This document shows positions 16,410 to 46,266 of a stretch of DNA of 46,266 nt, piece by piece. Made by a program: the position numbers and the translations under genes. Source of the stretch: a virus (taxonomy: Duplodnaviria > Heunggongvirae > Uroviricota > Caudoviricetes); IMG/VR virus record IMGVR_UViG_2671180743_000008. One strand, given 5' to 3'. Numbering within the stretch: position 1 is the stretch's first letter; each line of letters opens with the position of its first letter. The notes under the pieces are model-generated. The model saw only the letters and a list, made by a program, of their open reading frames with translations. It did not search any database and was not told the DNA's origin.

Positions 16410-16563
16410 TGCTCCCCCTGAGTAATTACAGGAAGATTACCCGCGCGCGAAACCGTTCTCCTTAACCCCCTGTTCTGGCCGTTTTCTTACAACAAAAGCC
16501 CTTTGTATCAGCCTGTTACGCTTTGCCATCATGACTGAAGAACCAGTCAGAGGGGCAAAAACT

Positions 16564-17400
16564 ATGGCTAATGAAAAAAAGACATCCCGCAAAAAGTTTC
16601 GCGTGGCTGTCTCCGGATCAACTGTTGATGGCCGTGAAATCAGTCCGGTGCATCTGCGTGAAGCCGCCGAGAACTTCAACCCGGATGTTTACGCTGCCCG
16701 CGTGAACGTTGAGCACTATCTCTCGCCATGCCCGTCAAGCGAATTTTCCGCAATGGGCGATGTCACCGCACTGAGTACGGAAGACATTACGGAAGGTCCG
16801 CTGGCCGGACGTACTGCGCTGTATGCAGAAATCGAACCGACCGAGCGCATGAAGCAGCTTGTCGCGGACGGCAAGAAAATCTATTCCAGTATCGAACTGC
16901 ACCCGCAGTTCTCCGTTAACGGGCGCGCCTATCTGGTCGGGCTGGCGATGACCGACACCCCGGCAAGCCTGGGCACTGAGCGCCTGAAATTCACGGCACA
17001 GCAACGTCAGGCGGTGATGACGTTCAACAGTATCCAGGGTGAAGCACCGCTTATCTCCGAAGCCATCGAGTCTGAAATCATCGAAATGGCAGAACAACGC
17101 CAGGAAGAAGGCACCCAGTGGTTTAACCGCGTAATGGGGATTATTGGTCGTGGCCGCAAAGCGGATGACGCCAGTTTCTCCCGTATTCAGGAAGCGGTGG
17201 AAAGCGTCGCAACGTCACAGGCCGACATTATCGACCGTTTTAATGCGCTGGAAACACGCCATCAGCAGGACAGCCAGAAAATCACTTTACTGACCACGGA
17301 GCTGACAGCACTGAAGGAAAAACTGCGCACGCAGGACGGCGATCCGCAGAACCGGTTCACCGCAACGGGCGCAGCCTCCGACCAGCTGGCTGACTTCTGA
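16564..17400 (+). CDS. O: Capsid scaffolding protein
   Basis: Start at MANEKK; N-terminus KKFRVAVSGSTVDGREISPVHLREAAENFNPDVYAARVNVEH resembles P2 gpO; transcribed divergently from Q-P. Confidence 0.85.
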   Translation: MANEKKTSRKKFRVAVSGSTVDGREISPVHLREAAENFNPDVYAARVNVEHYLSPCPSSEFSAMGDVTALSTEDITEGPLAGRTALYAEIEPTERMKQLVADGKKIYSSIELHPQFSVNGRAYLVGLAMTDTPASLGTERLKFTAQQRQAVMTFNSIQGEAPLISEAIESEIIEMAEQRQEEGTQWFNRVMGIIGRGRKADDASFSRIQEAVESVATSQADIIDRFNALETRHQQDSQKITLLTTELTALKEKLRTQDGDPQNRFTATGAASDQLADF

Positions 17401-28632: not shown

Positions 28633-28699
28633 ATTTTATAACCCATATACGGGCGCCAGAAATGGCGCCTTTTTTATTGCAGAAAAGCGAGAGGTAATT

Positions 28700-29299: not shown

Positions 29300-29404
29300 C
29301 AACAGACGCCGATTTATCTTCTGTAAATATTGTTATGATACGCAGGTTCATCCACCTTATGGGGTGAACTGCGTTTGAGGAAACGTAAAGTTACACTGTC
29401 CTGA

Positions 29405-29437
29405 AGCCCGTGGCGTCACTGCTGCGGGCTTTTTTTA
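29405..29437 (+). terminator. Rho-independent terminator after lom
   Basis: AGCCCG ... CGGGCT stem followed by TTTTTTT. Confidence 0.65.
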
Positions 29438-29450
29438 TTGGTGGAAAAGT

Positions 29451-32207: not shown

Positions 32208-32208
32208 G

Positions 32209-32535
32209 ATGATGCACCTGAAAAATATTAAGGCCGGGAATCCGAAAACACCGGAACAATACCAGCTAACTAAAAAACCGCTGGGATACCTCATTCGCGT
32301 GTCTGAGTGGTGGGAGTTCAACGGCGAACCCGGAACATTCAAGATTGATGTTGGCACGCTGGACAGTGGCGTGACGGAGGAAATGTATCTGGAAATGGAG
32401 CGGTTGATTGCTGATGCCCGCCCGGTCAGCCGCCACATGACAGGGCTGAATATCATTCAGGAGATTCAGGGAGATATTTTCGCGGCAGCAGCAACTTACG
32501 ACGGTGAAGTCATTACCATTTATCCGGACGATTAA
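32209..32535 (+). pseudogene. Chimeric ORF: tfa N-terminus (23 codons) fused in frame to the C-terminal part of gene I
   Basis: [23 protein letters not shown] then PLGYLIRVSEWWEF...ITIYPDD, which is identical to the end of gene I at about 24665..24925; junction at about 32277/32278. Confidence 0.75.
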
Positions 32536-32537
32536 GC

Positions 32538-34451
32538 ATGAGTACCACAACACGAAAATTTAAAACCATTATCACCGATACGGGTGCAAAAAAATTAGCG
32601 CAGGCAACCGCGCCAGATGGGAAACCTGTCCGCCTGACACATATGGCCGTGGGTGACGGCGGCGGTACTTTACCCACGCCAGACAGTAAGCAGACCCGTC
32701 TTGTGCATGAGGTGTGGCGACATACCGTTAATCGCGTCACCCTGGACGCAACACATCAGAACCACATTATTGCGGAGCTGGTTATTCCTCCTGAAACGGG
32801 CGGATTCTGGATCCGGGAAATTGGTGTGTTTGATGAGCACGGCGATTTGATCGCGGTAGGCAATACTGCCGAAAGTTACAAGCCAACCGTTGCCGAAGGA
32901 TCCGGACGTGCACAAACATTTCGCACCATTCTGACCGTATCCAGCACTGCCACTGTGGCGCTTACCGTGGATAACACCATGGTGATGGCCACAGTGAATT
33001 ACGTGGATGACAAACTGAAAGAGCATGAACAGTCACGACGTCACCCGGACGCCTCGCTGACCGCAAAAGGCCTTGTCCAGCTCAGCAACGCCACCAACAG
33101 CACGTCTGAAACGCTGGCAGCGACACCAAAAGCCGTTAAGGCAGTAATGGATGAAACGAACAAGAAAGCCCCATTAAACAGCCCGGCACTGACCGGAACG
33201 CCAACAACACCAACTGCGCGACAGGGAACGAATAATACCCAAATCGCAAGCACGGCTTTCGTTATGGCTGCGATTGCCGCACTTGTAGACTCTTCGCCTG
33301 ATGCACTGAACACACTGAACGAGCTGGCGGCGGCGCTGGGCAACGACCCGAATTTTGCGACCACCATGACTAACGCGCTTGCGGGTAAGCAACCGAAAGA
33401 TGCCACTCTGACGGCGCTGGCGGGGCTTGCTACTGCGGCAGACAGGTTTCCGTATTTTACGGGGAATGATGTCGCCAGCCTGGCAACCCTGACAAAAGTC
33501 GGGCGGGATATTCTTGCGAAATCGACCGTTGCCGCCGTTATCGAATACCTCGGTTTACAGGAAACGGTAAACAAGGCTGGTAACGCCGTTCAGCGTTCCG
33601 GCGATAAAATGACCGGAGAACTGAAAATTGGCACGGTGAATGCGCTGCGAATTTTCAATGATACCTTCGGTCTAATTTTCCGTCGTTCAGAAGATTTTCT
33701 TCATTTCATTCCGACGGCTGAAGGACAAGGCGAAAACGGTAATATCGGCCCATTAAGGCCATTCGCTATAAATCTGAGAACAGGTGCTATATCTGTCAGC
33801 CACGGGGCCAAAATTAAAGGAGGTCTAGCTATTGGAGCTACTGATAACGCACTGGGTGAAAACTCCATTGTTCTGGGAGATAACGACACCGGATTTAGGC
33901 AAGATGGAGATGGTATTATTAGCTTCTATTCAAATGGTTCGCGCATCGGACATATTGATGAGTTAGGATTACATCTTTATAAAGATATTGAATCTAATGG
34001 CAGCAATTTTAGATTAAAAAGTAATTACCGCCACCACATTACATTCGCCAACGAAGACGGAAGAATTCGTATGTTTTTGTGGAAAGATAACGGTGGTGAT
34101 GGTGTTCATATTAATAACGGTTCAGATGGTGGTGGTGATTTCATTTTTAAAACAGATGGGGGATTTGCGCTGGGAAGTGGTGCGCAAGTTGCGTCTAGTG
34201 GCGATATTTATGGTTCAGTGTGGGAAAACAACTGGTTAAGCACATGGCTGCATAATCATGTCGTTCGGGATATTCGTCTTGGCAGCATTGAATATAAAAA
34301 CGTATGGCGCGACTACGGCTTTGGCGATGCGTCAGGTTATGTTTTAACAGCCGCAATTAACAGCAATGCGGATGATATTGTCGACACTGTTGCCAGAAGG
34401 CCAATTCAGAAATTGATTGGGGGAATATGGTACAACGTGGGGAGTGTTTAA
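32538..34451 (+). CDS. H: Tail fibre protein H, copy 2 (recombinant: H copy 1 N-terminus plus stf tip B)
   Basis: 637 aa; identical to copy 1 up to [11 protein letters not shown], then identical to the stf C-terminus ([13 protein letters not shown]...WYNVGSV); the switch coincides with the gix-like site. Confidence 0.85.
33538..33563. other. gix/pix-like crossover site inside H copy 2
   Basis: TTATCGAATACCTCGGTTTACAGGAA, same orientation as the other two intragenic sites. Confidence 0.75.
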
Positions 34452-34452
34452 G

Positions 34453-34980
34453 ATGATGCACCTGAAAAATATTAAGGCCGGGAATCCGAAAACACCGGAA
34501 CAATACCAGCTAACTAAAAAAGCGGGCGTGGTATGGCTCTTTTGCGAAGATGGCAAAAACTGGTATGAGGAACAAAAGAATTTTCAGCCAGACACCATAA
34601 AAATTGCTTACGATGAGAACAACATCATCGTTGCTGTCAGTAAAGACGTTTCAACTATTAATCCTGAAGGGCTAAGCATAGTTGAAGTTCCTGATATTAC
34701 GGCAAATCGTCACGCAGACAATAACGGAAAATGGATGTTTCTGGATGGTAAAGTAGTAAAGAGGGAATATACAGAACAGGAACTGCAACAACAGGCCGAA
34801 TCACAAAAGGCCGCATTGCTTTCCGAAGCTGAATCAGTCATCCAGCCGCTGGAACGCGCTGTCAGGCTGAATATGGCGACGGACGAGGAACGCACACGAC
34901 TGGAAGCATGGGAACGCTACAGTGTTCTGGTCAGCCGTGTGGATACGGCAAATCCTGAATGGCCACAAAAGCCTGAATAA
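34453..34980 (+). CDS. tfa: Tail fibre assembly protein Tfa (partner of tip B)
   Basis: Start at [23 protein letters not shown]; 175 aa; follows H copy 2 with a 1-nt gap. Confidence 0.85.
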
Positions 34981-34984
34981 AAAT

Positions 34985-35004
34985 TAAGGCCCGATAGCGG
35001 GCCT
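34985..35004. terminator. Bidirectional hairpin terminator between convergent tfa genes
   Basis: AAGGCCCGATAGCGGGCCTT lying between the stops of the plus-strand tfa (34980) and the minus-strand tfa (35009). Confidence 0.6.
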
Positions 35005-35008
35005 TCTC

Positions 35009-35542
35009 TCATTCTGGTTGTTCGGGAAACGTTACTGGCAGGCTGGAGGTGTCTGTGGATTCGACCTTCTGCGCATAGAGCATCCACTCGGTTAATTTTT
35101 GTTTATTCTCATCGGAAATGATGCCCAGCTGTAGCTGAGAGTCCCACAGCTGGGTTTTATCCCTGACGAGCTGCAGCAGGCTCTGCTTTTCATTTTCCGC
35201 TTGTTGCCTTTGCTCTTCCTCGGTATAAGTTCGCTTTATCACCGCACCATCTTTGAACATCCAGTTGCCCGAAATATCAGCCCGGCGATTTGCTGTAATA
35301 TCAGGCAACTCAACGACACTTAAACCTTCTGGATTAATTGCTGATACATCCTTGTCTATAGCAATAATTATTCCCTCAACTGTGTAAGCCAGTTTTATTG
35401 TATCCTCCTGAAAGTTTTTTAATTCCTCATGCCAATTTTTTCCATCTTCGGACCATAACCAGATAACATCAAAATTCTTTGTTAGCTGGTATTGTTCAAC
35501 GGTTTTTGGATTACCTGCGACAATGTTTTTTAAATGCTGCAT
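35009..35542 (-). CDS. Tail fibre assembly protein Tfa (inverted orientation, partner of tip C)
   Basis: 177 aa; [23 protein letters not shown]-terminus typical of Tfa; opposite strand to the expressed fibre genes, as in Mu G / e14 P invertible segments. Confidence 0.8.
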
Positions 35543-35694
35543 GATTATACCTGCGATACGTTATACCATGTTCCGTTAATTAACTTTTGTATTGGTCTGA
35601 ATACTGCCGGATCATCACCATCGACTTCACCGATAATACCAAGCCCCGTGATTACATGGCCTGATTTTTCATACATCACGCCTTTCTTCATGGT

Positions 35695-36306
35695 CTAAAC
35701 AACTCGTGTGCCAAGTCTGACATCTCTCACATAGCGGGAATCAAAGTTACCGTAATCCGAGGGATTAACACGTCCCGTAATATTTATGGTTTTATTACTT
35801 TGAATGCTTCCGGAGACAAAGCGCATAACATGGACGTTATTAGCATAAACATCCAGATTACCATCGCCTTTTTGTTTAAAGCCCGTGTCATTATCACCCA
35901 ATACAATCGAATTACCGCCAAGAGCACTGGATGTTCCGATACCCAGTGCACCATTCAGTTGACCACCAGATAACGGCAGTGCACCAACATCTCCTGCTGA
36001 AGGTTTTCTGGTGGTGTAAAATTCGGACCAGTCGGCTTCAAAACCATAACCATCACGGGCTGAACGATAAAAAATACCGCCATTTTTATAATTAATCCGA
36101 AACTGAGCTGCAGGACAACTTCCTTCTCCCATATAAAAATGAATAATTAACGTTGATGCACCACTAATAGTTGCGTTATAGGCTCCGCTACTCCAGTTCC
36201 ATCCAACTGCTTTATCATTCGCAACGGTGCTTCCTGTTTTCCCTAAGGCAAACGCACCAACATGACTTGCTTTTAATGTGATATCGGAGGAACCATCAAA
36301 AGCCAC
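35695..36306 (-). pseudogene. Alternative tail-fibre tip segment (variant C), promoterless and probably frameshifted
   Basis: Fibre C-terminal domain motifs ([26 protein letters not shown]); the frame ends prematurely at ...DVRLGTRVV*, while the expected fibre end (...[17 protein letters not shown]) is encoded in another frame at about 35543..35690. Confidence 0.65.
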
Positions 36307-36453
36307 ATTGCTTATTTTCCTGGCAGTTTTTAATTTTGCAGCTGTAGAAGCATTGCCGGATAGTTCACCAGAAAGGCCACCGCTGAATGTTTGTCGATTA
36401 GTCCAGGTATTCGCTGTACTGAGTAACGGTATTTTCTCCCCGCTTGTGCCGAG

Positions 36454-36479
36454 TTCTCGTAAACCGAGGTTTTAGATAA
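36454..36479. other. gix/pix-like crossover site (inverted orientation), next to the truncated invertase
   Basis: TTCTCGTAAACCGAGGTTTTAGATAA, close to the Mu gix sequence as I recall it (TTCCTGTAAACCGAGGTTTTGGATAA); inverted relative to the three intragenic sites. Confidence 0.75.
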
Positions 36480-36533
36480 TGGCGGTTTCTGGCCTGCATG
36501 GCATGATTTGCGCTTTTGGACGGGAGATTCAGC

Positions 36534-36716
36534 GTGCTGATTGGCTATGTAAGGGTATCAACAAATGACCAGAATACAGACCTGCAACGAAACGCTCTTG
36601 TTTGTGCAGGATATGAACAAATATTTGAAGATAAATTAAGCGGAACAAGGACAGGCCGACCTGGATTAAAACGTGCTTTAAAGCGCCTTCAAAAAGGTGA
36701 CGCACTGGTTGTCTGA
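36534..36716 (+). pseudogene. Truncated Gin/Pin-family serine DNA invertase (N-terminal about 60 codons)
   Basis: GTG start then VLIGYVRVSTNDQNTDLQRNALVCAGYEQIFEDKLSG...KGDALVV*; versus the intact copy a TGG to TGA change gives a premature stop, after which the sequence diverges. Confidence 0.8.
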
Positions 36717-36914
36717 AAACTGGACTGACTGGGTCACTGTATGCGGCATCTTGTCGTGCTGGTGGTGGAAGCCTAGAAAAAGTATCGGGTGTTGCTGAAC
36801 CGTGTTGATACATCAACTGCACCTGATATTGAGTGGCCTACGAACCCTGTCAGGGAGTAATCATTGGGATTATGCCGCAGCACGTCTTAAGCAAGAACGT
36901 GCTGCGGTTGGATG

Positions 36915-37583
36915 CTATTTTTTCCCTGAAGCGGAAAACATTACTACAGTACCTTGAACCCTGGTTTTAACATTCTCGAAATGCTCTGAGAGTATATGTG
37001 TTAAGCCTTCTTCGGAATCTTTTGTGTTTGAAAAGATGCCTTTCTGATTGTAAATGCGCATCAGTTTTTGACCGAAGCTATTGTGCACAACTCCATCGCC
37101 AAGAATTGTGGCTCCGTATAGAGTTCCATCAATTAATTTTTGTTTATTCTCGTCGGAAATAATGCCCAGCCGTAGCTGTGAGTCCCATAGCTGGGTTTTA
37201 TCCCTGACGAGCTGTAGCAGGCTTTGCTTTTCATTTTCCGCTTGTTGCCTCTGCTCTTCCCCGGTATAAGTTCGCTTTATCACTACGCCATCTTTGAACA
37301 TCCATTTACCTGAAATATCAGCCCGGCGATTTGCTGTAATATCAGGAACCTCAACGACGCTTGCGCCTTCCGGATTAATTGCTGAAACATCCTTTTCAAT
37401 ACAAATAATAACGCCGTTGTGGTCATAGACCATTTTCAACGTATCAGGCTGAAAGTTCTTTTGTTCCTCATACCAGTTTTTCCCATCCTCTGTATAAAGC
37501 CATTTGATGTTAAATTGTTTCGTTAGCTGGTATTGCTCTTTTGTTTCAGGATTACCAGCAGAAATGTTTTTTAAGTGCATCAT
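36915..37583 (-). CDS. Tail fibre assembly protein Tfa (inverted orientation, partner of tip D), atypical C-terminus
   Basis: 222 aa; the first 160 or so residues are Tfa-like ([22 protein letters not shown]...); the last 45 or so are unrelated to other Tfa ends and run into the deletion scar next to the truncated invertase. Confidence 0.7.
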
Positions 37584-37585
37584 CG

Positions 37586-38329
37586 TTAAATACTCCCCGC
37601 GTTATACCACGTCCCATTAATGCAATACTGAATTGGCCTTGCCTGAGTTGTATCAATTAGTTCATCTCTGTTTGAGTTAACGGAACCGGTAACAACATAA
37701 CCTGACCTGTCAGACCATCCGGGACCATTCCATGTCTGAACAGATAACAGACCACCAAGGCGAATACCTGTAATAAACCTTGAGTTACATTCTGCCTGCG
37801 TATATGCACCAACATCTCCCGCAGAGGGTTTGCGGGTTGTGGTGTAAAACTCTGACCAGTCAGCTTCAAAGCCATAACCATCACGCGCTGAACGATAAAA
37901 AATACCGCCGTTCCTGTAATTCACGCGGAACTGTACAGCAGGGCAGCTCCCCGTATTCATATTGAAGTGGAGGATTAATGTCGATGCGCCACCAATGTTT
38001 GCGTTATAGACCCCGCTATTCCAGTTCCAGCCAACAGCTTTATCATTTCCGACAGTGCTTCCTGTTTGCCCTAAAGCAAATGCAGGTTGTTGATTTTTCG
38101 TGTTGTAGTCTCGTCGCCAGCCAGGAGCGTAAGCATCACCATGATTAATATAAGTGAATTGAGCGTTAGTAATTCCGCCACCGCTGGACGTGCTCGGCGT
38201 GGTAACGCGTATGGTCATTGCGCCGCGAGTGCCAATAACTTCCACCACAGCACCTGCAAGACAAATATTTCCGCAACCTGTATCTGTAATGACCTTATTA
38301 TTTGCATAAGCCCATGAGCCTTTGCACAT
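37586..38329 (-). CDS. Alternative tail-fibre tip segment (variant D), promoterless
   Basis: 247 aa listed; fibre tip ending ...[17 protein letters not shown] immediately upstream of its tfa; the open frame probably continues up to the crossover site at about 38530. Confidence 0.7.
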
Positions 38330-38530
38330 CCAGTAAGGATGGTTAAATGCTCCCTGACTCTCCAGCCACGAAATAAATTGCGCGGTTGTCCAGACCTGAC
38401 TATCGCCACCAATATTCAGCCATGAGCTATATGCGCGGCAGGCACCAATATTTTTGGTGAAGGTATCTTTCCCCGGAATATCTGCGCCGTTCTGGTTTTT
38501 CTGTAATGCGCCAGAAGCCTGATTTACCGT

Positions 38531-38556
38531 TTCCTGTAAACCGAGGTTTTAGATAA
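38531..38556. other. gix/pix-like crossover site (inverted orientation), next to the intact invertase
   Basis: TTCCTGTAAACCGAGGTTTTAGATAA; the 55 bp that follow match the leader of the truncated invertase copy. Confidence 0.8.
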
Positions 38557-38610
38557 TGGCCGTTTCCGGCCTGCATGGCATGATTTGCGCTTTTGGACGG
38601 GAGATTCAGC

Positions 38611-39198
38611 GTGCTGATTGGCTATGTAAGGGTATCAACAAATGACCAGAATACAGACCTGCAACGAAACGCTCTTGTTTGTGCAGGATGTGAACAAATA
38701 TTTGAAGATAAATTAAGCGGGACAAAGACAGACCGACCGGGATTAAAACGCGCTTTAAAGCGCCTTCAAAAAGGTGACACGCTGGTTGTCTGGAAACTGG
38801 ATCGCCTCGGGCGAAGCATGAAACATCTGATTTCTCTCGTCGGGGAACTACGGGAGCGAGGAATTAATTTTCGCAGTCTGACCGACAGCATAGATACATC
38901 TTCTCCAATGGGGCGTTTTTTCTTCCACGTGATGGGTGCCCTGGCTGAAATGGAACGTGAATTAATTGTTGAACGTACACTGGCCGGACTGGCGGCAGCA
39001 CGCGCACGGGGGCGCACAGGCGGACGTCGACCGAAGCTGACAAAAGAACAGCATGAGCAAATAGCAAGGCTGATCAAAAACGGGCACGACAGAAAACAAC
39101 TGGCAATAATTTACGGCATTGGTATATCGACGATTTATCGTTACCACCCCGCAGGAGAATCAATCGGAACAATAGAGAAGAGTCAGGAAACAAAATAA
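38611..39198 (+). CDS. pin: Gin/Pin/Hin-family serine DNA invertase
   Basis: GTG start; VLIGYVRVSTNDQNTDLQRNALVCAGCEQIFEDKLSGTKTDRPGLKRALKRLQKGDTLVVWKLDRLGRS with the catalytic Ser in the YVRVST motif; C-terminal HTH; closely resembles Mu Gin / e14 Pin. Confidence 0.9.
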   Translation: MLIGYVRVSTNDQNTDLQRNALVCAGCEQIFEDKLSGTKTDRPGLKRALKRLQKGDTLVVWKLDRLGRSMKHLISLVGELRERGINFRSLTDSIDTSSPMGRFFFHVMGALAEMERELIVERTLAGLAAARARGRTGGRRPKLTKEQHEQIARLIKNGHDRKQLAIIYGIGISTIYRYHPAGESIGTIEKSQETK

Positions 39199-39226
39199 CC
39201 GCTAATCTGACCATTAGCGGTTTTTG
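39198..39226. terminator. Bidirectional terminator between pin and U
   Basis: ACCGCTAAT ctgacc ATTAGCGGT hairpin followed by TTTTT on the plus strand and an A-rich run on the other side. Confidence 0.7.
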
Positions 39227-39233
39227 TGTTAAA

Positions 39234-39728
39234 TCAGAACAACCCTTTAACTGAACTGGCCGCGCTGTTAAGGGATGATGTTACCTTATCTTTGAAGCCG
39301 GACAGCATATCGCTGAACGATGAGGATTGCAGGCGCTCCCGCAAATCCTCATCACAGCGTTCAAGAGTCAGTGAAAATTCTATCTTTTTCGCCTTACCGT
39401 AGCGATCAAACTCGGAGCGGGTCGTATTCGTTTCGGTCAGGACATACATGCCGTAAATCTGCCCGACGCCATCAATCAGAGGCCAGGGTCGTCCTGTATA
39501 CGCCTGCGTGGTCAGCAGCGACAGCGACACTTCGCCACCTGTAATTTCAGGATAAAGCACACCAGAAAGAACGATGCGCTCATCACCTGCACCGATATAC
39601 TGCCAGCTTGCCGAACGGTTAACGCGTTCATTTTTCACATGCCGCCAGCTTTTGTTTTGCTGTAACTGCTGATGCGGCAATGTACGCAGCTCAAAAACAA
39701 ACATGCCGTAGATCATCATCATGGCCAT
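39234..39728 (-). CDS. U: Tail protein U
   Basis: 164 aa; N-terminus (IYGMFVFELRTLPHQQLQQNKSWRH ... LSGVLYPEITGG) resembles P2 gpU. Confidence 0.8.
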   Translation of the reverse strand: MAMMMIYGMFVFELRTLPHQQLQQNKSWRHVKNERVNRSASWQYIGAGDERIVLSGVLYPEITGGEVSLSLLTTQAYTGRPWPLIDGVGQIYGMYVLTETNTTRSEFDRYGKAKKIEFSLTLERCDEDLRERLQSSSFSDMLSGFKDKVTSSLNSAASSVKGLF

Positions 39729-39734
39729 GACTCC

Positions 39735-42578
39735 TCAATCTTTATCGTAAAAACTGCCACGCCCGGCACGGGCGCGCCGTTCCATTTCTGCCCTGACCAT
39801 TTCACCGACCAGTTTCGCCAGTTCGCGGGGATTCTGCGTAACAACGTTATGCAGATGAACATGAATTTCACCACCAAATCCGGAGGCAACAGGCTCCCGG
39901 TTACGGGAAGTTACAGGAACTGATGCCACTGGAGAGCGTATGGCCTCCGCCACCGGGCGGGAGCTGGCCGCAACAACAGGGACCAGCGCCGGAGGCAGCG
40001 GAGCCGGGACCACGGGTGTGATATTAATTGCGGGGGCAGGCTTACTGACCTGCGCAATCTTCCGCTCCTGCCACTCCCCACGAACAGCAAGTGCGCGGGG
40101 CAGGTTCTTAAAGACAATATCGCCGGGGCCAATGCGTTTTTTCGTCTCATCAACCAGCTTACCTGTGTTATCAGCAATTTTGCTGAGTCTGCGTAGCGTC
40201 CCGGTATTGCTGTCTGTGAGCGGTTTGTTGTCTTTGGGTTTATCACCTCCGGTGCCATTGCCATTTTCCACAGGCTTCGGCGGATTGATTTTCGCCAGGT
40301 CCCCCTGAAGCAAGGCAACCTTGTCCTGAAGAATGGCCGCACGCTGTGCGTCTTCGATTTTCTTGCGCGCCCTTTCCGCTTCATCCGGAAGGACGCCAAG
40401 TTTTTCAAGTATCCACGCCAGCGTATCCAGTAGCATTTTTGCAGGTGTCAGAACAAGTTGTAACGCACCGCCAAGAACGTTACCGAATATCTCGCCAGCA
40501 CTGGCACATTTATCCAGCGTTTCCTTGCTGGACTCCATCGGTGACAGCAGCGATTTAAACCAGTTAAAGACCTGAATAATCCCATCGCGCACGACATCAA
40601 AAACAGGGCCAAACCGTTCAAAGGTTTCGCGCAACGGGGTCAGCCTTTCCATAATCCCGCTGAACACCCCGGCAAAAAATGCCCTGATGGGATCCCAGTA
40701 TTTCCAGATAAGAACGGCAGCTCCGGCAAGCGCAGCCACGATAAGACTAACCGGACTGAACAGCGCCCCGATAGCGCCACCAAGTAAAGAAACGGAACCC
40801 GTCACCATTCCCCATAATGCAGGCAGAACCCTGACAACATTCATTGATTCGGTCAGGAGAGAAAAACCGAGACGCAACGTAGCCAGCTTCCCGTGAAGCA
40901 CCCCAATAACCAGAGACAACGAACCAACCGTTGCTGTTGTCGCCAGCAGTGCGCCTCCCGCTATCAGTAACTGGCGCGTCAGTGCCGGGTGGGCCTGCGC
41001 CAGCGCCGTCACCTTTGAGACAACCCGCGTGAGCCACTGCGTGACAGAACGCAGCGGACCGTCAACCAGATCACTGATGCGAATACGCAGACCTTCCCAT
41101 GCACTGCCGAGTGATTTCAGGTTGCCATCAAGGTTATTGGCCATAACCTTTGCCGTGCGTTCTGCCTCACCGCGCGCGCCTTCAAGTTCTTTTCTCAGTT
41201 TGGCTAAGAAGCCGTCACCTGCCGCATCAACGAGGCCCATAAATGATGTGAAAGCCTCTTCTCCGGCAATGTCCTTAAAGAACGATACCCGGTCAACCTC
41301 CCCGTATTTGCGGGTGGCTTTATAGAGATCGGCCAGCACATTCTCCATCGGGCGCATTTTGCCTTTGGCGTCAGCAACTGACACCCCCAGCTCTTTCAGT
41401 GCTTCTGCCGCTGCCTTTGGCGGTGATGACAGATTGGCCAGGCTTTTACGCAACGCTGTACCTGCATCACTCCCCCTGATACCCATCTTCGCCAGCACGC
41501 CCGCCATCGCTGCGGCCTGCTCCAGCGATATTCCCAGCTTACCCGCCACCGGACCTGCATATTTCATGGTTTCGCCCAGTGCGCGAAGGTCAGTGTTGGT
41601 ACGGGTAAACGCTGCGGTAAGTGTGTCACCGACCCGGTCCATCTGGTCAGCAGAGAGGCCGAACTGCGTCAGGATATTGGAACCAATATCCGCCGTCTCG
41701 CCGAGGTCCATACCGCCAGCCGTTGCCATGCTCAGCACGCCGGGAAGCGCAGCCTGAATGGCCTGCGGTGTGAAACCAGCCATTGCAAGAAATGCCTGTC
41801 CACTGGCGGCATCGCCTGCGGTGAACTGCGTTTCAGAGCCAAGTTTTAACGCCTGCTCACGCAGCGCCTTAAACTGCGGGCTGTTTTTATCGATTCGCGT
41901 CAGTGCCTGAACACGGGACATCTCTTTCCCGAACCCGATAGCGGGCTGCAAAAAACGCCCGGCAGCATAGCCGCCCGCTGCCGCCGCACCTGTTGCCAGC
42001 GCACCACCTGTTTTCAGTTTTCCCGCTGTTTCCTGCGCGCGTGAATACCGCTCACGCGCCTGCGTTACACGCGCAAGCGCCCGCCGTTCGCGTTCAAGCT
42101 GGTTGTTGTATTGTCCGGTGCGTCTGATGGCCTGCTGGATGGTGTTATCGCTGCCTGTCAGGGAAATGCCGTGGCGTTTCAGCTCTCCGCCAAGTTCCCG
42201 CATTTTCTGAATTTCCCGTGTGCGCGATTCATTCAGGCGTTCAAGCCGGGTGCTTAACTGCTGCATCAGCTTTTGTTGTTTTTCGCTGAGCACTGTACCC
42301 GTGCGTTGTAACTGATTAAGGGCGTTAAGCTGGCGTCGTGCTTTCACGATGCCCGCATCCGCTTTACTGACAGCGTCACGGGCGCGCTCAAATGAACGCG
42401 CCTGACGCTCGAGATTTTTGATCGCCCCCTGCGTTCGCTGGATGGAGTCACCAAACTGCCCCATCAGGCGGCGGGCGTTTTCGGCAGGCCGGGTCAGCCT
42501 GTCAACGGCGCTGAAAGCGACCCGGATATCAAGAGTCTTCATTGTCTGCATTCCCGCTGCGAAGTGCCGCCCGCTCAC
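39735..42578 (-). CDS. T: Tail tape-measure protein T
   Basis: 947 aa; long alpha-helical, Ala/Gly-rich with hydrophobic central segments; lies between E and U as in P2. Confidence 0.85.
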   Translation of the reverse strand: MSGRHFAAGMQTMKTLDIRVAFSAVDRLTRPAENARRLMGQFGDSIQRTQGAIKNLERQARSFERARDAVSKADAGIVKARRQLNALNQLQRTGTVLSEKQQKLMQQLSTRLERLNESRTREIQKMRELGGELKRHGISLTGSDNTIQQAIRRTGQYNNQLERERRALARVTQARERYSRAQETAGKLKTGGALATGAAAAGGYAAGRFLQPAIGFGKEMSRVQALTRIDKNSPQFKALREQALKLGSETQFTAGDAASGQAFLAMAGFTPQAIQAALPGVLSMATAGGMDLGETADIGSNILTQFGLSADQMDRVGDTLTAAFTRTNTDLRALGETMKYAGPVAGKLGISLEQAAAMAGVLAKMGIRGSDAGTALRKSLANLSSPPKAAAEALKELGVSVADAKGKMRPMENVLADLYKATRKYGEVDRVSFFKDIAGEEAFTSFMGLVDAAGDGFLAKLRKELEGARGEAERTAKVMANNLDGNLKSLGSAWEGLRIRISDLVDGPLRSVTQWLTRVVSKVTALAQAHPALTRQLLIAGGALLATTATVGSLSLVIGVLHGKLATLRLGFSLLTESMNVVRVLPALWGMVTGSVSLLGGAIGALFSPVSLIVAALAGAAVLIWKYWDPIRAFFAGVFSGIMERLTPLRETFERFGPVFDVVRDGIIQVFNWFKSLLSPMESSKETLDKCASAGEIFGNVLGGALQLVLTPAKMLLDTLAWILEKLGVLPDEAERARKKIEDAQRAAILQDKVALLQGDLAKINPPKPVENGNGTGGDKPKDNKPLTDSNTGTLRRLSKIADNTGKLVDETKKRIGPGDIVFKNLPRALAVRGEWQERKIAQVSKPAPAINITPVVPAPLPPALVPVVAASSRPVAEAIRSPVASVPVTSRNREPVASGFGGEIHVHLHNVVTQNPRELAKLVGEMVRAEMERRARAGRGSFYDKD

Positions 42579-43058
42579 GCCAGCTAACCACTTCGCCGGG
42601 CGTCATCATGAAGATTTCGGCGGGCGACCAGTTAAAAATGGCGGCAATATCCGCCACAAAGTCTTCTATGTGCTCAAAGCACACAACCGTGATCAGGCTT
42701 CCGTCGCCTGTTCGTTCTTCTCGCCAGAGTCCGCACCGCTCAAAAAATTTACGGCAACCACACATAACTGAATAAAGTCACGGGATGCCATTTTTTTGAT
42801 CGTCACTTCATCCAGTCGCGGTGATGTCACGCGTGACAGCAGCGTAAACATGGATTCCGCTTTCAAATTCAGCACATCAGACAGCGACAAATCTCGCAGA
42901 GATCCAGCCTGCTCAATAGCCCCGGTGATCTCCACATACGTGATTTTTTCGCCGCCTCGCTCAATTGGTTGGGTAAGTTTTACGCCACGCTCACTGGTTT
43001 CTTTCACAGTGTCAGCAACGACCGTGTTTTCGGTATCGATGTTTTTCGTCTCTTTCAT
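42529..43058 (-). CDS. E': Tail assembly chaperone E+E' (-1 programmed frameshift product)
   Basis: The -1 frame is open from the slippery site at 42741..42747 to the stop at 42529; by coordinate arithmetic the frame relationship is -1; same heptamer as I recall for P2 E/E'. Confidence 0.6.
42693..43058 (-). CDS. E: Tail assembly chaperone E
   Basis: 121 aa; ends ...AVNFLSGADSGEKNEQATEA; contains the slippery heptamer U UUU UUG (minus strand, 42747..42741). Confidence 0.8.
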   Translation of the reverse strand: MKETKNIDTENTVVADTVKETSERGVKLTQPIERGGEKITYVEITGAIEQAGSLRDLSLSDVLNLKAESMFTLLSRVTSPRLDEVTIKKMASRDFIQLCVVAVNFLSGADSGEKNEQATEA

Positions 43059-43112
43059 CAGGAAACTCCTTTCAGTCAGAGGCGACGCACTGCGCCGCCT
43101 GCATATTACTTA

Positions 43113-43625
43113 TCAGCCAAGCCCGAGCGCGGAACGGATGCGATCGGGCACAATGTCCCTGCCGTCCTTCCGGTAAATGAAGTTCAGCAGGTCAATCTCC
43201 CACAACGGGCGATCGTTAACACTCAGCTTGTAGTAGGTGTTTTTAATGGCGTAAGTGTGTGATGTGGCTTCGCCCTGTTTGGCTTCCCCCATATCAATTT
43301 CCGTCACACGTCCGCGCATTTCGACTTCATACAGGTCGCTTTCAGCGTCGGTGTAGTATTCACCCGCAAAACGCAGCAGCGTACCGTCAATCGTGCCGCC
43401 ATACTTAAGGAACAGCTCACGAACTGCGCCCCCCATGACAAAGCTCGCATCAAGCGCGGAGTCATCCAGGCCGAGATCAATACTTACCGCTCCCATCATG
43501 CCACCACCCCGGTAGCTGTCGGTTTTGCGCGTCAGCTTAGGCAGAGTGACGGACGTCACCTTACCCACTTCGTTTTCACCATCCACAAACAGCGTAAAAA
43601 AGCGAAGATGTTTTGGTACAGCCAT
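43113..43625 (-). CDS. FII: Tail tube protein FII
   Basis: 170 aa; immediately downstream of FI; P2 gpFII size. Confidence 0.85.
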   Translation of the reverse strand: MAVPKHLRFFTLFVDGENEVGKVTSVTLPKLTRKTDSYRGGGMMGAVSIDLGLDDSALDASFVMGGAVRELFLKYGGTIDGTLLRFAGEYYTDAESDLYEVEMRGRVTEIDMGEAKQGEATSHTYAIKNTYYKLSVNDRPLWEIDLLNFIYRKDGRDIVPDRIRSALGLG

Positions 43626-44809
43626 CAGGCACCTCCCAGCACCGCAAATGCGGGACCAAAGAATTCATCAGTAAACGACTGGTAAAGCTCCATGTCTTCC
43701 AGCGGGGGAACAGGCGTATATTTGTAGCGAATACGCACGCGCCCCTGACGTAAATTCGTGGTGCCGTTATCCACCACGTCATACCAGCACGACGCCCCAA
43801 TCAGTTTCCCGGCAGTAACCAGTGAATCCAGTTTTGCCCTGATGGCACCGATAACATCCTTCACGTTCGCAGGCGTCAGTGGACTGTCGATGGTTTCAAA
43901 CTGCGCTTCCGCAATTGAATCAGCCAGCACCTGTGCGGTTCGGGTATACACCTCAAAGATGTAGGCGTTCGTTTCCGGTGTGCGGTTGCCCCAGAAGCGG
44001 AACCCGTTGCGACGAATAATGGTCGTGATTTCTTTGTTGTTGAGGCTGTTGGCATCACTGTCTTCGGCCTGCAACGACCAGAACACATGCCTGGACATCC
44101 CCAGCACATTTTTAACCGGAACGTTGGACAGCGATTTGTGCCAGCCCTGCTCATGGTCAATGTACGCACGAAGGCCGCACGCATAGGCAGGCGCGGGGAA
44201 CGTTTCGTTTTTGCCACTTTTCGGGTTGTAGGCGATGAAGTCCGGCCATAAGAGCATCACCTCACGTTCGTTGAATTTCTGGCGGTAGGTAATTGCCTCA
44301 GCCATCGTGTTACAGTCATGACATGAGGCATACACAAACGCGCGCAGTTTACCCGCAATCACGCACAGGGATTTTGTCACCGCCTCCGTGTCCAGCTCCG
44401 GCGCGGCCAGAATACGCGGACGGTATCCGATGCTTTCATCCTGCTCTGCAACAAGCAGCGCATACATCCCCGTATAGCTGCCGTCAGATTCAGAACCACC
44501 GATAACCAGTTGATCCTGCGTTTTTCCGTCTTCTTCTTTGTGTTCAGCCACGCGAACGACGATCACCTTTGTGCTCACCTGGTCTGCGATGGCCTTAAGC
44601 GCACGATAAAGCGTCCCCGTTGTTCCGCATTTTCCCAGCACGTCATTGACGCGGGGCAGCAGTGTGGGCTTGTTCAGCGGGAACAGCTCCGCGTCCGCAT
44701 CATCCGCCGTTGCCACGATACCGATAACGCTGGAATCAACATCGTTAATCGCTGTTACCAGGTCGGTATTTTCCGTAACACGGGCACCATGAAAACGAGT
44801 TTCACTCAT
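43625..44809 (-). CDS. FI: Tail sheath protein FI
   Basis: 394 aa; P2 gpFI size; first gene of the FI-FII-E-T-U block. Confidence 0.88.
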   Translation of the reverse strand: MSETRFHGARVTENTDLVTAINDVDSSVIGIVATADDADAELFPLNKPTLLPRVNDVLGKCGTTGTLYRALKAIADQVSTKVIVVRVAEHKEEDGKTQDQLVIGGSESDGSYTGMYALLVAEQDESIGYRPRILAAPELDTEAVTKSLCVIAGKLRAFVYASCHDCNTMAEAITYRQKFNEREVMLLWPDFIAYNPKSGKNETFPAPAYACGLRAYIDHEQGWHKSLSNVPVKNVLGMSRHVFWSLQAEDSDANSLNNKEITTIIRRNGFRFWGNRTPETNAYIFEVYTRTAQVLADSIAEAQFETIDSPLTPANVKDVIGAIRAKLDSLVTAGKLIGASCWYDVVDNGTTNLRQGRVRIRYKYTPVPPLEDMELYQSFTDEFFGPAFAVLGGA

Positions 44810-44966
44810 AGCTTCAACCCCTTGTATCCGTTAAATGATTCGGCAACAATCATCACCCACCACGCGCGTAATCTCACCCCTGCGCCATTCTCCCGCCACG
44901 GCGACAACAAAAAGCAGTAACCCCCTCCGCACGCACATGCGACCATGCCACACAGGGAGGGAGCAG

Positions 44967-46076
44967 ATGACCGACACCACCATGCAATTGCTCAGTCAGG
45001 GCACAGACCCCGTGAAAATGCCGGATTTTGATATTCTCGCGGAGGGTAAAACGCTGTCAGGCGTGGCAGAGCGCCTGATGAGCCTGTCACTGACCGACAA
45101 CCGGGGATTTGAGGCGGACCAGCTCACCATCACGCTGGATGATGCGGATGGTCAGTTGCAGCTACCGCCACGGGGCGCGCGCCTGACGGTTCTCATTGGC
45201 TGGAAGGGAGAACCGCTGACAGAAAAAGGCACTTACATTGTTGATGAAATCGCTCACGAAGGACCGCCGGACAGGCTGACTGTTTCAGCCAGAAGCGCAG
45301 ATTTTCGGGCTGAATTTAACGTTAAACGTGAGGTGTCCTGGCATGATGTGACCGTTGAGCGTGTGGTATCCGCCATCGCTCATCGGTATGGTCTGAAACC
45401 GCAAATCAGCGAAATGCTGATGGATATCGAAATCGACCACGCCGACCAGACCGAAGAAAGCGACATGTCCTTCCTTACGCGCATGGCGGAAATGCTGGGC
45501 GCAATCACCACGGTAAAAAGCGGTAATCTGTTATTCATCATGCCCGGTGGTGGCGTGAACGCACAGGGCCAGCCGTTGCCCTCGTTCGCCATCACACGCA
45601 GCAGCGGCGATCGCCATCAGTTCCGCATTGCTGACCGCGAAGCGTATACGGGGGTACGCGCTTACTGGCTTGATCTTAATTACGGGAAAAAGAAAAAAGT
45701 CAGCGTGAAACGCCGCAAACCGTCAAAACCAAAAAAGGAGAAAAGCAGCAGCCGGGAAGGCGACTATATGGAAGGTGCGGAAGGCAACGTGTTTGTGTTA
45801 CGCAAAACTTATCAGAACGAGCAGGCAGCAAGACGTGCAGCGGCGGCAAAGTGGCAGCAGCTACAACGCGGAGCCGCATCATTCTCCATCACACTGGCGC
45901 ATGGACGTGCAGAACTCTACCCCGAAATGCATGGCACGGTAACAGGATTTAAAAGCGAGATTGATAATCAGGACTGGATTATTGCAAAAGCCGAGCACAC
46001 CATTGATAACAGCGGCTTTACCACGCAGCTTGAGCTTGAGGCAAAAATCCCGGAATGGATAGCAGAAACAGAGTGA
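44967..46076 (+). CDS. D: Tail protein D (late gene D)
   Basis: Start at MTDTTMQ, preceded by GGGAGGGAG; 369 aa; position matches P2 gpD except that it is divergent from FI here. Confidence 0.8.
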   Translation: MTDTTMQLLSQGTDPVKMPDFDILAEGKTLSGVAERLMSLSLTDNRGFEADQLTITLDDADGQLQLPPRGARLTVLIGWKGEPLTEKGTYIVDEIAHEGPPDRLTVSARSADFRAEFNVKREVSWHDVTVERVVSAIAHRYGLKPQISEMLMDIEIDHADQTEESDMSFLTRMAEMLGAITTVKSGNLLFIMPGGGVNAQGQPLPSFAITRSSGDRHQFRIADREAYTGVRAYWLDLNYGKKKKVSVKRRKPSKPKKEKSSSREGDYMEGAEGNVFVLRKTYQNEQAARRAAAAKWQQLQRGAASFSITLAHGRAELYPEMHGTVTGFKSEIDNQDWIIAKAEHTIDNSGFTTQLELEAKIPEWIAETE

Positions 46077-46266
46077 GCAACTTAAATGTATTAACTCAGA
46101 ACGGATCAACACACTCACAACATAGAGTCAATATAGCTGCTCGCTTTGTTCCAGCAAGGATGCCTATTTCTAAGGAAAAACAGAGCAGAAACATATGGTG
46201 TTTTCCTACCTGACATCAGGGGTGGTAGACTGGCCCCCTGAATCTCCAGACAACCAGTATCACTTA

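What the first reader, a model, noticed from the sequence alone, without database searches (positions are those of the whole stretch)
39234..44966. FI-FII-E-T-U block inverted relative to canonical P2 gene order and divergent from D
In P2 as I recall it, V-W-J-I-H-G and FI-FII-E-T-U-D are all transcribed in the same direction, with D last in the F operon. Here FI, FII, E, T and U are on the minus strand, while V to G and D are on the plus strand. FI and D start divergently from the 157-bp region 44810..44966. One inversion endpoint abuts the pin terminator at about 39200..39233. I found no gix-like site at the FI/D end, so this is probably not Pin-mediated. If real, D must have its own promoter, and the prophage may be defective or a rearranged lineage.
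Basis: partly seen in the sequence, partly recalled or inferred. Interest (0 to 1): 0.5.

Follow-up and report, generated by a model that had tools for sequence, protein, structure and literature searches.

The report
Normal tail-gene order of P88-like phages
The tail sheath-to-U gene block does point the opposite way from phage P2, but this is the fixed, standard layout of a large group of working P2-related phages (P88 and relatives), so it is ordinary and not a sign of damage.

Summary
FI, FII, E/E', T and U lie on the minus strand (39234-44809). V-G and D lie on the plus strand. FI and D diverge from a 157-bp spacer (44810-44966), and a bidirectional hairpin terminator (39197-39222) separates U from the invertase.

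The reading "defective or freshly rearranged" is not supported. The same arrangement is colinear in phage P88 (96.7% identity) and in PhiSM, both plaque-forming temperate phages. It also occurs in five Peduoviridae genera, in 19/19 informative enterobacterial genome loci, in 80/80 IMG/VR contigs, and in about 1,100-1,360 of 5,426 complete E. coli genomes. P2, Cartapus and phiCTX keep the co-directional order, so the inversion is derived, old and fixed. No gix site or inverted repeat flanks the block.

D most likely has its own late promoter. The spacer carries a dyad, TCT-N12-ACA. This is one mismatch from the Ogr consensus, and the exact TGT-N12-ACA sits at the same position in 26 relatives. 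The dyad lies midway between two -10-like elements, about 55 bp from each predicted start. P2's pP/pO pair and this prophage's own P/O spacer have the same geometry. An Ogr/Delta gene follows D in every relative where the region downstream of D could be read; here it lies beyond the window end.

Ordinary, already present in public records.

The parts
38593..39198 (+). Gin/Pin-type serine invertase. It is the neighbour of the block, not part of the inversion.
   Evidence: Pfam Resolvase 1.5e-50 and HTH_7. Annotated as DNA invertase at the same place in P88.
39197..39222 (.). Bidirectional intrinsic terminator between the convergent invertase and U genes.
   Evidence: 10-bp stem with T-runs on both strands. 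Free energy -15.7 / -16.1 kcal/mol, z -3.9 / -3.7.
39234..39728 (-). U (tail protein gpU).
   Evidence: Pfam Phage_P2_GpU 7.7e-39. 47% identical to P2 U.
39735..42542 (-). T (tape measure). The longest ORF runs to 42578; the ATG at 42542 gives the P88 length.
   Evidence: Pfam PhageMin_Tail 1.4e-57. P88 CDS is 2808 nt. Sequence read.
42529..43058 (-). E (42693-43058) and the E+E' frameshift product. The slippery TTTTTTG is at 42747-42741.
   Evidence: tblastn to P2 E. Pfam Phage_P2_GpE on the -1 frame. Heptamer in the X_XXY_YYZ register.
43113..43625 (-). FII (tail tube).
   Evidence: Pfam Phage_tube 1.9e-46.
43625..44809 (-). FI (tail sheath).
   Evidence: Pfam Phage_sheath_1, Gp18_domIII_N and sheath_1C. 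45% identical to P2 FI.
44810..44966 (.). 157-bp divergent FI/D control region.
   Evidence: Sequence. Conserved blocks in alignments of relatives.
44849..44854 (-). Predicted -10-like hexamer of the leftward FI promoter (GATGAT on the minus strand). Predicted start near 44842.
   Evidence: An AT-rich hexamer sits at a fixed offset from the dyad in 93/95 unique FI/D spacers. Same column as the P-gene hexamer in the P/O spacer. Inferred, not mapped.
44889..44906 (.). Ogr-type dyad TCT-N12-ACA, centre 44897.5. The candidate shared activator site. Its right half lies in the conserved box GACAACAAAAA (44903-44913).
   Evidence: Composite motif KTCTSSCC-N7-KACAACAAAA: three matches at <=3 mismatches (0.34 expected) — 16473 (P/O spacer, 0 mismatches), 44888 (FI/D spacer, 1) and one outside them at 439 (3 mismatches). 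T[GC]T-N12-ACA is at the homologous position in 93/95 FI/D spacers, and 26 of those are exact TGT. SEN4 has the exact TGT-N12-ACA in both of its spacers.
44938..44946 (+). Predicted extended -10 of the D promoter (TGcGACCAT). Predicted start near 44953. SD GGGAGGGAG at 44955-44963.
   Evidence: TGn-xAxxxT at a fixed offset in 90/95 unique FI/D spacers. Parallel to TGcCATCAT (16524-16532) upstream of O. Inferred.
44967..46076 (+). D (baseplate hub / late control D family).
   Evidence: Pfam Phage_GPD 5.1e-17. 48% identical to P2 D. 96.5-98.9% identical to Xuanwuvirus D proteins.
16410..16564 (.). P/O divergent late control region of the same prophage, used as the internal comparison. Dyad TCT-N12-ACA at 16474-16491. 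Leftward hexamer TAATCT (reverse complement of 16434-16439). Rightward TGcCATCAT at 16524-16532.

Best explanation
The window holds a P88-like (Xuanwuvirus, Peduoviridae) prophage. In the common ancestor of a clade of P2-related phages, the segment carrying the F promoter and FI-FII-E/E'-T-U was inverted in place. D and ogr stayed in their original orientation. The inverted state became fixed and is now the normal layout of that clade.

The old F operon is therefore split into two late units that diverge from one 157-bp control region. FI-U reads leftward and ends at a bidirectional terminator shared with the invertase gene. D reads rightward from its own promoter.

The control region most likely works like P2's pP/pO pair. 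One dyad-symmetric Ogr-type activator site (TCT-N12-ACA, centre 44897.5) lies about 55 bp from each of two divergent, activator-dependent promoters. These have recognisable -10 elements and no -35.

Shown: gene identities, orientation, conservation of the arrangement, function in relatives, and motif conservation and geometry.
Inferred: the transcription starts, dependence on Ogr, and a single ancestral inversion event.
For: Arrangement:
- Colinear single-piece match to P88 at 96.7% identity over 98% of 38000-46266. 13 phage records cover >=80%. The annotations show the same strands.
- P88 and PhiSM are plaque-forming temperate phages.
- Every phage whose D protein is >=62% identical has FI adjacent on the opposite strand. 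These belong to Xuanwuvirus, Novemvirus, Reginaelenavirus, Reipivirus and Senquatrovirus, plus Serratia KSP20.
- 19/19 genome loci that hold both genes, labelled with 15 genera, have the arrangement. So do 80/80 IMG/VR contigs.
- 1,103 complete E. coli genomes carry a colinear copy covering >=80% of 38300-46266.
- The FI/D junction probe is found in 1,358 genomes, against 1,371 for an internal FI probe.

Polarity: P2, Elveevirus Cartapus (D 52.8% identical) and Pseudomonas phiCTX are co-directional.

In-place inversion rather than a foreign module: divergence from P2 is similar inside and outside the block. FI 45, FII 42, U 47 and D 48%, against V 46, W 42, Q 47 and P 44%.

Promoter model:
- The same composite motif occurs in both divergent late spacers; one further 3-mismatch match (439) lies outside them.
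- In both spacers the flanking -10-like elements sit at the same columns.
- The dyad with both flanking elements is present in 90/95 unique FI/D spacers and 46/48 unique P/O spacers, against 0.3% of random 250-nt pieces of the window.
- The geometry matches P2's annotated pP/pO site and starts: site 3057-3087, starts 3016 and 3127.
- P2's own annotated sites are also one mismatch from TGT-N12-ACA.
- An Ogr/Delta gene lies just downstream of D, on the same strand, in all relatives where the downstream region could be read.
- Smp131 is a precedent for one dyad serving two divergent late promoters, and for late operons re-partitioned after rearrangement (PMC3931495).
Against: - No transcription start, activator binding or reporter data exist for this lineage. 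The promoter model rests on motif conservation and geometry.
- The related sequences are not independent, so the conservation counts overstate the support.
- The left half of the dyad is TCT, not TGT, in the window and in most relatives.
- The -10-like hexamers are weak (3-4 of 6), and the AT-rich left hexamer also reads as a -10 on the other strand.
- The generic sigma-70 scan found nothing in the spacer. This is expected for activator-dependent promoters, but it is not positive evidence.
- The ogr gene of this particular prophage is outside the window, and an IS2 lies between D and where ogr should be.
- A single ancestral event is a parsimony argument from a few outgroups, not from a rooted phylogeny.
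Confidence: 0.85

Rival explanations
1. A recent rearrangement in this strain broke the F operon and left a defective prophage.
For: The arrangement differs from P2. This prophage shows other signs of disturbance: a chimeric fibre region not seen colinear in any of 5,426 complete E. coli genomes and an IS2 downstream of D.
Against: The identical arrangement occurs in plaque-forming P88 and PhiSM, in five genera, and in all 99 surveyed loci that hold both genes. All genes of the block are full length, with the E/E' frameshift signal intact.
Confidence: 0.02
2. The FI-U block is a switchable segment flipped by the adjacent Gin/Pin invertase.
For: An invertase gene abuts one end of the block. The window has five gix-like sites.
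Against: All gix-like sites are in the fibre region, with none near 39200-39233 or 44810-44966. No inverted repeat brackets the block. No relative has the other orientation: 0 of 99 loci. 99% of E. coli genomes with this FI gene keep the FI/D junction. Relatives without an invertase have the same orientation (SEN4 and phiT5282H).
Confidence: 0.01
3. Assembly artefact: the block was mis-oriented during assembly.
For: None for this block. The neighbouring fibre region is repeat-rich and unusual.
Against: Both junctions are reproduced in 13 phage genomes and in more than 1,100 complete E. coli genomes.
Confidence: 0.01
4. The sheath-to-U module was not inverted in place but acquired from another contractile-tail phage and inserted in the opposite orientation (mosaic replacement).
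For: Mosaicism is common in these phages. The fibre and invertase part is 94-97% identical to Mu, D108 and P1-type sequences, and a lambdoid J'-lom-stf fragment sits in the fibre region.
Against: Divergence from P2 is uniform across the block and its flanks, 42-48%. Internal order and overlaps (FI/FII, E/E'/T) are exactly P2-like. The spacer shares its regulatory motif with the P/O spacer of the same genome.
Confidence: 0.07
5. D is expressed from its own promoter, but not an Ogr-type one. The promoter could be constitutive or controlled by another factor, and the conserved ACAACAAAA box would have a different role.
For: The left half-site is TCT rather than TGT in most relatives. A conserved CGCGCGCG tract between the box and the -10 has no P2 counterpart. 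A small Zn-ribbon-like protein (12935-13120) at the end of the early operon is an untested alternative regulator.
Against: An exact TGT-N12-ACA sits at the same column in 26 unique FI/D spacers and in both SEN4 spacers. The -55 geometry matches P2. The ogr homolog is conserved next to D. The Zn-ribbon protein has no homolog in the relatives' D-flanking loci and only a sub-threshold Pfam hit.
Confidence: 0.15

Closest known systems
Escherichia phage P88 (Xuanwuvirus P88, NC_026014) and Citrobacter phage PhiSM
   Same: Same gene content, order and strands from the invertase through U-T-E'-E-FII-FI to D. The 157-bp spacer is the same. Identity is 95-97% at the nucleotide level.
   Different: The window has a much larger, chimeric tail-fibre region: 13.4 kb against 4.4 kb. 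It also has a PIN-domain moron upstream region and an IS2 end after D, where P88 goes straight to ogr.
Bacteriophage P2 F operon (pF-FI-FII-E-E'-T-U-D-ogr)
   Same: The genes are homologous (32-48% identity). The internal order is the same, as is the E/E' TTTTTTG frameshift. D is followed by ogr in the relatives.
   Different: FI-U are inverted as a block, so D is no longer the last gene of the operon. FI and D diverge from a shared spacer. In P2, U and D overlap.
P2 pP/pO divergent late promoter pair
   Same: One dyad activator site sits midway between two divergent promoters, about 55 bp from each start. Start-to-start distance is 111 bp in P2 and about 111 bp predicted here (44842 to 44953). 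The dyad matches TGT-N12-ACA imperfectly.
   Different: Here the pair drives tail genes (FI-U and D), not the packaging and head genes. The degenerate half-site is the left one (TCT), whereas in P2 it is the right one (CCA/CAA). There are no experimental data.
Stenotrophomonas phage Smp131 (P2-like, with rearranged late operons)
   Same: A P2-like phage in which gene rearrangement re-partitioned the V and F operons. TGT-N12-ACA-like sites were proposed for the new units, and one dyad was read on both strands for PP'/PO' (PMC3931495).
   Different: The rearrangement is different (an exchange of members between operons, not an FI-U inversion), and the lineage is distant.
Mu G segment / P1 C segment / e14 P region (Gin, Cin, Pin invertible fibre segments)
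   Same: The adjacent invertase and the fibre cassettes, with their gix-like sites, belong to this kind of system.
   Different: The FI-U block has no crossover sites and one fixed orientation. It is not part of the invertible system.

Membership tests
Peduoviridae (P2-like) late/tail gene cluster | Homologs of the P2 late proteins Q P O N M L X R S V W J I H G FI FII E T U D. | tested here: met
   tblastn of P2 proteins finds all of them, at 26-88% identity. Pfam confirms sheath, tube, GpE, tape measure, GpU and GPD.
Peduoviridae (P2-like) late/tail gene cluster | Tail chaperone pair E / E+E' made by a -1 frameshift at TTTTTTG. | tested here: met
   The heptamer is at 42747-42741 in the correct register. 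The -1 frame carries the GpE domain.
Peduoviridae (P2-like) late/tail gene cluster | Canonical P2 order with FI...U and D co-directional in one F operon. | tested here: not met
   FI-U are on (-) and D is on (+). This is a clade-wide variant, not a defect.
Peduoviridae (P2-like) late/tail gene cluster | Ogr/Delta-type zinc-finger late activator. | not testable with these tools
   No hit inside the window. In all relatives where the region could be read the gene lies just downstream of D. Here that position is beyond the window end, after a PIN-moron leader and an IS2 end.
Genus Xuanwuvirus (P88-like) | High nucleotide identity and colinearity with P88 across the genome. | tested here: met
   96.4% identity over 68% of window 1-25000. 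The unmatched part includes 4.2 kb of host flank. 96.7% identity over 98% of 38000-46266. The fibre region differs.
Gin/Pin-type invertible DNA segment (applied to the FI-U block) | Inverted crossover (gix-like) sites at both ends of the segment. | tested here: not met
   The five gix-like sites are all at 25928-38556. None lies at 39199-39233 or 44810-44966. No bracketing inverted repeat.
Gin/Pin-type invertible DNA segment (applied to the FI-U block) | Both orientations found among close relatives or within populations. | tested here: not met
   0 of 99 loci have the alternative orientation. Junction-probe and FI-probe counts are 1,358 and 1,371 genomes. Within-population heterogeneity cannot be tested here.
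Ogr-dependent late promoter (P2 pP/pO/pV/pF type) | Dyad TGT-N12-ACA centred about -55 from the start. | tested here: inconclusive
   TCT-N12-ACA at 44889-44906 is one mismatch from the consensus. The exact dyad is at the same column in 26 relatives and in SEN4. The annotated P2 sites are also one mismatch off. The distance to the start is predicted only from the -10-like elements.
Ogr-dependent late promoter (P2 pP/pO/pV/pF type) | Transcription that depends on the activator, and a mapped start site. | not testable with these tools
   Needs RNA mapping or reporter assays.

The most novel reading that the evidence does not exclude
The FI/D spacer is a second bidirectional Ogr-type late promoter. 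It was created when an ancestral inversion carried pF and its dyad-symmetric activator site next to D. Because the site is symmetric, it could immediately serve a new rightward promoter, which let the F operon split without loss of late control. The clade would then be a natural example of how palindromic activator sites make operon-splitting inversions tolerable.
Probability: 0.6. Interest if true: 0.3.

Novelty: already known. Interest (0 to 1): 0.12.

Why it matters
Mostly as a correction. A deviation from the P2 textbook gene order should not be read as prophage decay. The inverted FI-U block is the standard layout of a widespread clade, found in about a quarter of complete E. coli genomes and in five ICTV genera.

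A minor positive point is a concrete, testable prediction: D has its own late promoter, sharing one Ogr-type site with the FI promoter in the same geometry as P2's pP/pO. Annotators could also use the result. The ogr gene of P88 is unannotated, and the PhiSM record mislabels the sheath and D genes.

Tried and rejected
- An exact TGT-N12-ACA search of the window gave only two hits (13337, 26766), fewer than chance and neither near an operon start. The motif had to be relaxed after comparing relatives.
- The generic sigma-70 scan found no promoter in the spacer.
- tblastn with P2 Ogr and with the phiT5282H Ogr-like protein found nothing in the window. This is because D is followed here by a different sequence and the window then ends.
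- I considered a 61-aa Cys-rich protein (12935-13120) as an alternative late activator. It has only a sub-threshold Zn-ribbon hit (E = 0.005, below the gathering score) and no homolog in the relatives' loci, so I dropped it.
- The 'ogr' label in the PhiSM record turned out to be a mis-annotated D gene.
- The conserved CGCGCGCG tract next to the -10 elements of P and D, and of FI in the window only, could not be given a role.
- Literature searches found no explicit description of this inversion. The xenorhabdicin xnp1 paper (PMC3133312), which might show a similar layout, is not held.
- The D-alignment scan of IMG/VR returned only the same clade (>=67% identity), so it could not locate the boundary with co-directional phages. 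The boundary came instead from annotated phage records.
Full report
**What is there**

- FI sheath lies at 43625-44809, FII tube at 43113-43625 and E at 42693-43058.
- The E' extension is in the -1 frame down to 42529.
- T is the tape measure. Its ORF runs 39735-42578, and the probable start is the ATG at 42542.
- U lies at 39234-39728.
- All of these are on the minus strand.

R, S, V, W, J, I, H, G and D are on the plus strand. D starts at the ATG at 44967. It sits behind GGGAGGGAG, aligns with the start codon of every relative, and matches the start annotated for P88. The FI start codon occupies 44807-44809, so the spacer is 44810-44966, 157 bp.

The invertase (38593-39198) and U converge on a 10-bp-stem hairpin at 39197-39222 with T-runs on both strands. 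The E/E' slippery heptamer TTTTTTG is intact and in register at 42747-42741. All genes of the block have the lengths annotated for P88.

The P2 record confirms that in P2 the genes V-G and FI-FII-E-E'-T-U-D-ogr are all co-directional, and that D belongs to the F operon.

**What the element is**

The left 4.2 kb of the window is the E. coli nlpC-btuDEC region. From the integrase (4152-5279) onward it is a P2-like prophage.

The region 38000-46266 matches phage P88 (Xuanwuvirus, Peduoviridae) in one colinear piece, at 96.7% identity over 98% of the query. Thirteen phage records cover at least 80% of it. The head and early regions match P88 at 96%. The annotations of P88 and PhiSM show the same order and strands: invertase(+), U T E' E FII FI (all -), D(+).

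**Is the arrangement a defect?**

No. P88 was induced with mitomycin C, forms plaques and has been engineered through its lysogen (PMC5285337). PhiSM is released spontaneously, plaques on K-12 strains and forms immune lysogens (PMC6456863).

**How widespread and how old**

- tblastn of D and FI against 50,697 phage records shows one pattern. Every phage whose D is at least 62% identical has FI adjacent on the opposite strand. These phages belong to:
  - Xuanwuvirus (P88, P884B11, 500465-2, PhiR44_2, Chuche, PhiSM);
  - Novemvirus (phiT5282H);
  - Reginaelenavirus (3LV2017);
  - Reipivirus (ST16-OXA48phi5.4);
  - Senquatrovirus (SEN4, SEN5);
  - the Serratia KSP20 fragment.
- A scan of one genome per species found 22 loci. 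All 19 that contain both genes show V W J I (+) ... U T E FII FI (-) | D (+), with D 64-98% identical. The records are labelled with 15 genera:
  - Salmonella, Edwardsiella, Kluyvera, Erwinia and Enterobacter;
  - Mixta, Pantoea, Kosakonia, Citrobacter and Izhakiella;
  - Brenneria, Klebsiella, Rouxiella and Trabulsiella;
  - one record labelled Vagococcus, probably contamination.
- All 80 IMG/VR contigs recovered with a D alignment (67-99% identity) have the arrangement.
- Among 5,426 complete E. coli genomes, 1,103 hold a colinear copy of at least 80% of 38300-46266.
- An 801-bp probe across the FI/D junction is found in 1,358 of those genomes. An internal FI probe is found in 1,371. About 99% of genomes with this sheath gene therefore keep the divergent junction.
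- The nearest phage with the co-directional order is Elveevirus Cartapus (D 52.8% identical; invertase, FI ... U, D, ogr all on one strand).
- P2 and the distant Pseudomonas phage phiCTX are also co-directional. HP1 has another order, but every annotated gene in the stretch read (O through the fibre and baseplate genes) is on one strand.

By parsimony, the inverted state is derived, arose once deep in this clade, and is fixed.

**Mechanism of the inversion**

The adjacent Gin/Pin-type invertase is not responsible.
- The five gix-like 26-mers of the window all lie in the fibre region (25928, 31294, 33538, 36454, 38531).
- No inverted repeat brackets 39234-44809.
- Relatives without an invertase (SEN4, phiT5282H) have the same orientation.
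- No relative has the alternative orientation.

Divergence from P2 is about the same inside the block (FI 45, FII 42, U 47%) as outside it (D 48, V 46, W 42, Q 47, P 44%). This favours inversion in place over acquisition of a foreign module.

The parts of U and D next to the old U/D junction do not align with P2: the last ~30 residues of U and the first ~15 of D. The first codons of D also vary in sequence and length among relatives. This is compatible with a breakpoint there, although such protein ends vary anyway.

**How D is expressed (inferred)**

An exact TGT-N12-ACA is absent from the spacer, and the sigma-70 scan is silent there. Alignment of the spacer from relatives shows islands of conservation in otherwise diverged sequence. 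The strongest island is GACAACAAAAA (44903-44913).

The same box occurs in the other divergent late spacer of this prophage, between the terminase gene P and the scaffold gene O (16488-16498). It is conserved there in IMG/VR relatives whose P protein is 73-92% identical.

The composite motif KTCTSSCC-N7-KACAACAAAA has three matches in the window at up to 3 mismatches, against 0.34 expected. Two are in the late spacers: 16473 (0 mismatches) and 44888 (1 mismatch). The third, at 439 (3 mismatches), lies in the host flank. The motif was derived from these sequences, so its value lies in the conservation among relatives.

Within it, TCT-N12-ACA (44889-44906; 16474-16491) is a one-mismatch form of the Ogr consensus.
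- T[GC]T-N12-ACA occupies the homologous position in 93 of 95 unique FI/D spacers, and 26 of those are exact TGT.
- It also occupies that position in 48 of 48 unique P/O spacers.
- SEN4, the most distant genus, has the exact dyad in both of its spacers.
- P2's own annotated activator sites are also one mismatch off: TGT-N12-CCA at pP/pO and pF, and TGT-N12-CAA at pV.

The geometry also matches.
- In P2 the pP/pO site (3057-3087) lies 55-56 bp from both annotated starts, 3016 and 3127.
- Here the dyad centre is at 44897.5. This predicts starts at about 44842 and 44953, and -10-like elements sit exactly where those starts require.
- Leftward, the element is GATGAT (reverse complement of 44849-44854).
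- Rightward, it is an extended -10, TGcGACCAT (44938-44946).
- The P/O spacer has TAATCT (reverse complement of 16434-16439) and TGcCATCAT (16524-16532) at the same columns relative to its dyad.
- The O start is probably the ATG at 16565.
- The dyad with both flanking elements is present in 90/95 unique FI/D spacers and 46/48 unique P/O spacers. The same test passes in 0.3% of random 250-nt pieces of the window.
- The relatives are not independent, so this shows constraint and is not a probability.

An Ogr/Delta zinc-finger gene lies immediately downstream of D, on the same strand, in every relative where the region downstream of D could be read.
- phiT5282H has a Pfam Ogr_Delta hit at 4.7e-17.
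- P88 carries an unannotated copy at L001:20111-20359 with the motif CX2C-X24-CX4C.
- E. coli E2863 has the order D - PIN-domain gene - ogr - hok - attR.

The published description of P2 late control and a precedent come from PMC3931495. That paper sets out the four promoters, TGT-N12-ACA and the Ogr zinc finger. It also describes one dyad read on both strands for PP'/PO', in a P2-like phage with re-partitioned late operons.

Together this supports a bidirectional, Ogr-type late control region in which the FI-U unit corresponds to pP and the D unit to pO. I put about 0.65 on Ogr dependence and 0.85 on the overall account.

**Caveats for this particular prophage**

Its ogr gene is outside the window. 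After D the sequence matches the leader of a PIN-domain moron (46088-46227) and then enters an IS2 end at about 46225. The fibre region is unusual (see the noticed items). These features could affect viability, but they are unrelated to the FI-U orientation.

**Verdict**

The feature is real and correctly described. It is an already-documented lineage feature of P88-like and related Peduoviridae, present in public annotated genomes. I found no paper that discusses it explicitly. Interest is low. The only new element is the predicted shared Ogr-type site that gives D its own late promoter.

Noticed in passing
window 24928-38329: The tail-fibre region is 13.4 kb, against 4.4 kb in P88, and it is chimeric. 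It starts with P2-like H and G. Then comes a lambdoid fragment: the C-terminal part of the J tip protein (27526-28632), Lom (28700-29299) and an Stf-like fibre (29451-32207). After that come fragments of G and I (32209-32526), a second P2-like H and G (32538-34980), and finally inverted G'/H' and Mu-like U'/S' cassettes. No complete E. coli genome (0 of 5,426) has a colinear copy covering >=80% of 24300-35100. It is either a unique recombinant or an assembly mis-join across shared fibre repeats.
   Followed up: partly
window 25928-25953, 31294-31319, 33538-33563 (one orientation); 36454-36479, 38531-38556 (the other): There are five gix-like 26-mers, with none expected by chance. Three lie inside the three fibre genes and two next to the inverted cassettes. 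This suggests a multi-site invertible fibre system driven by the invertase at 38593-39198.
   Followed up: partly
window 46088-46266: Directly after D, the sequence diverges from P88. Positions 46088-46227 match the region upstream of a PIN-domain gene that in E. coli E2863 sits between D and ogr. An IS2 (IS3 family) end begins at about 46225 and runs off the window.
   Followed up: yes
L001:20111-20359 (P88 NC_026014, record about 34476-34724); L002 (PhiSM OR565851): P88 RefSeq does not annotate its Ogr/Delta-like gene downstream of D (MFRCPLCG..., CX2C-X24-CX4C). The PhiSM record labels the sheath gene 'late control gene D protein' and the D gene 'ogr/Delta-like zinc finger'.
   Followed up: yes
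window 12935-13120 (+): A 61-aa Cys-rich protein (CPHC...CIC...CEKC) sits at the end of the early operon, just upstream of the portal gene. It has a weak Zn-ribbon Pfam hit (E = 0.005, below the gathering score). Its function is unknown.
   Followed up: partly
window 16433-16449 and 44868-44875; relatives' FI/D spacers: A conserved alternating CGCGCGCG tract lies immediately upstream of the predicted -10 of P, of D in most relatives, and of FI in the window. It has no counterpart in P2 late promoters and no explanation.
   Followed up: no
window 19323-19415: The M-L intergenic region contains a long GC-rich hairpin followed by TTTTTT. It could be an internal attenuator or terminator within the long O operon.
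   Followed up: no
L006 (record labelled Vagococcus sp. WN89Y) and L023 (Planococcaceae MAG UBA3378): Assemblies labelled as Firmicutes carry this enterobacterial prophage with D 98% identical. This is most likely contamination of those assemblies.
   Followed up: no
window 1-33: The first 33 bases of the window do not match the E. coli nlpC-btu region that the next 4.2 kb matches at 99.5%. Not examined.
   Followed up: no
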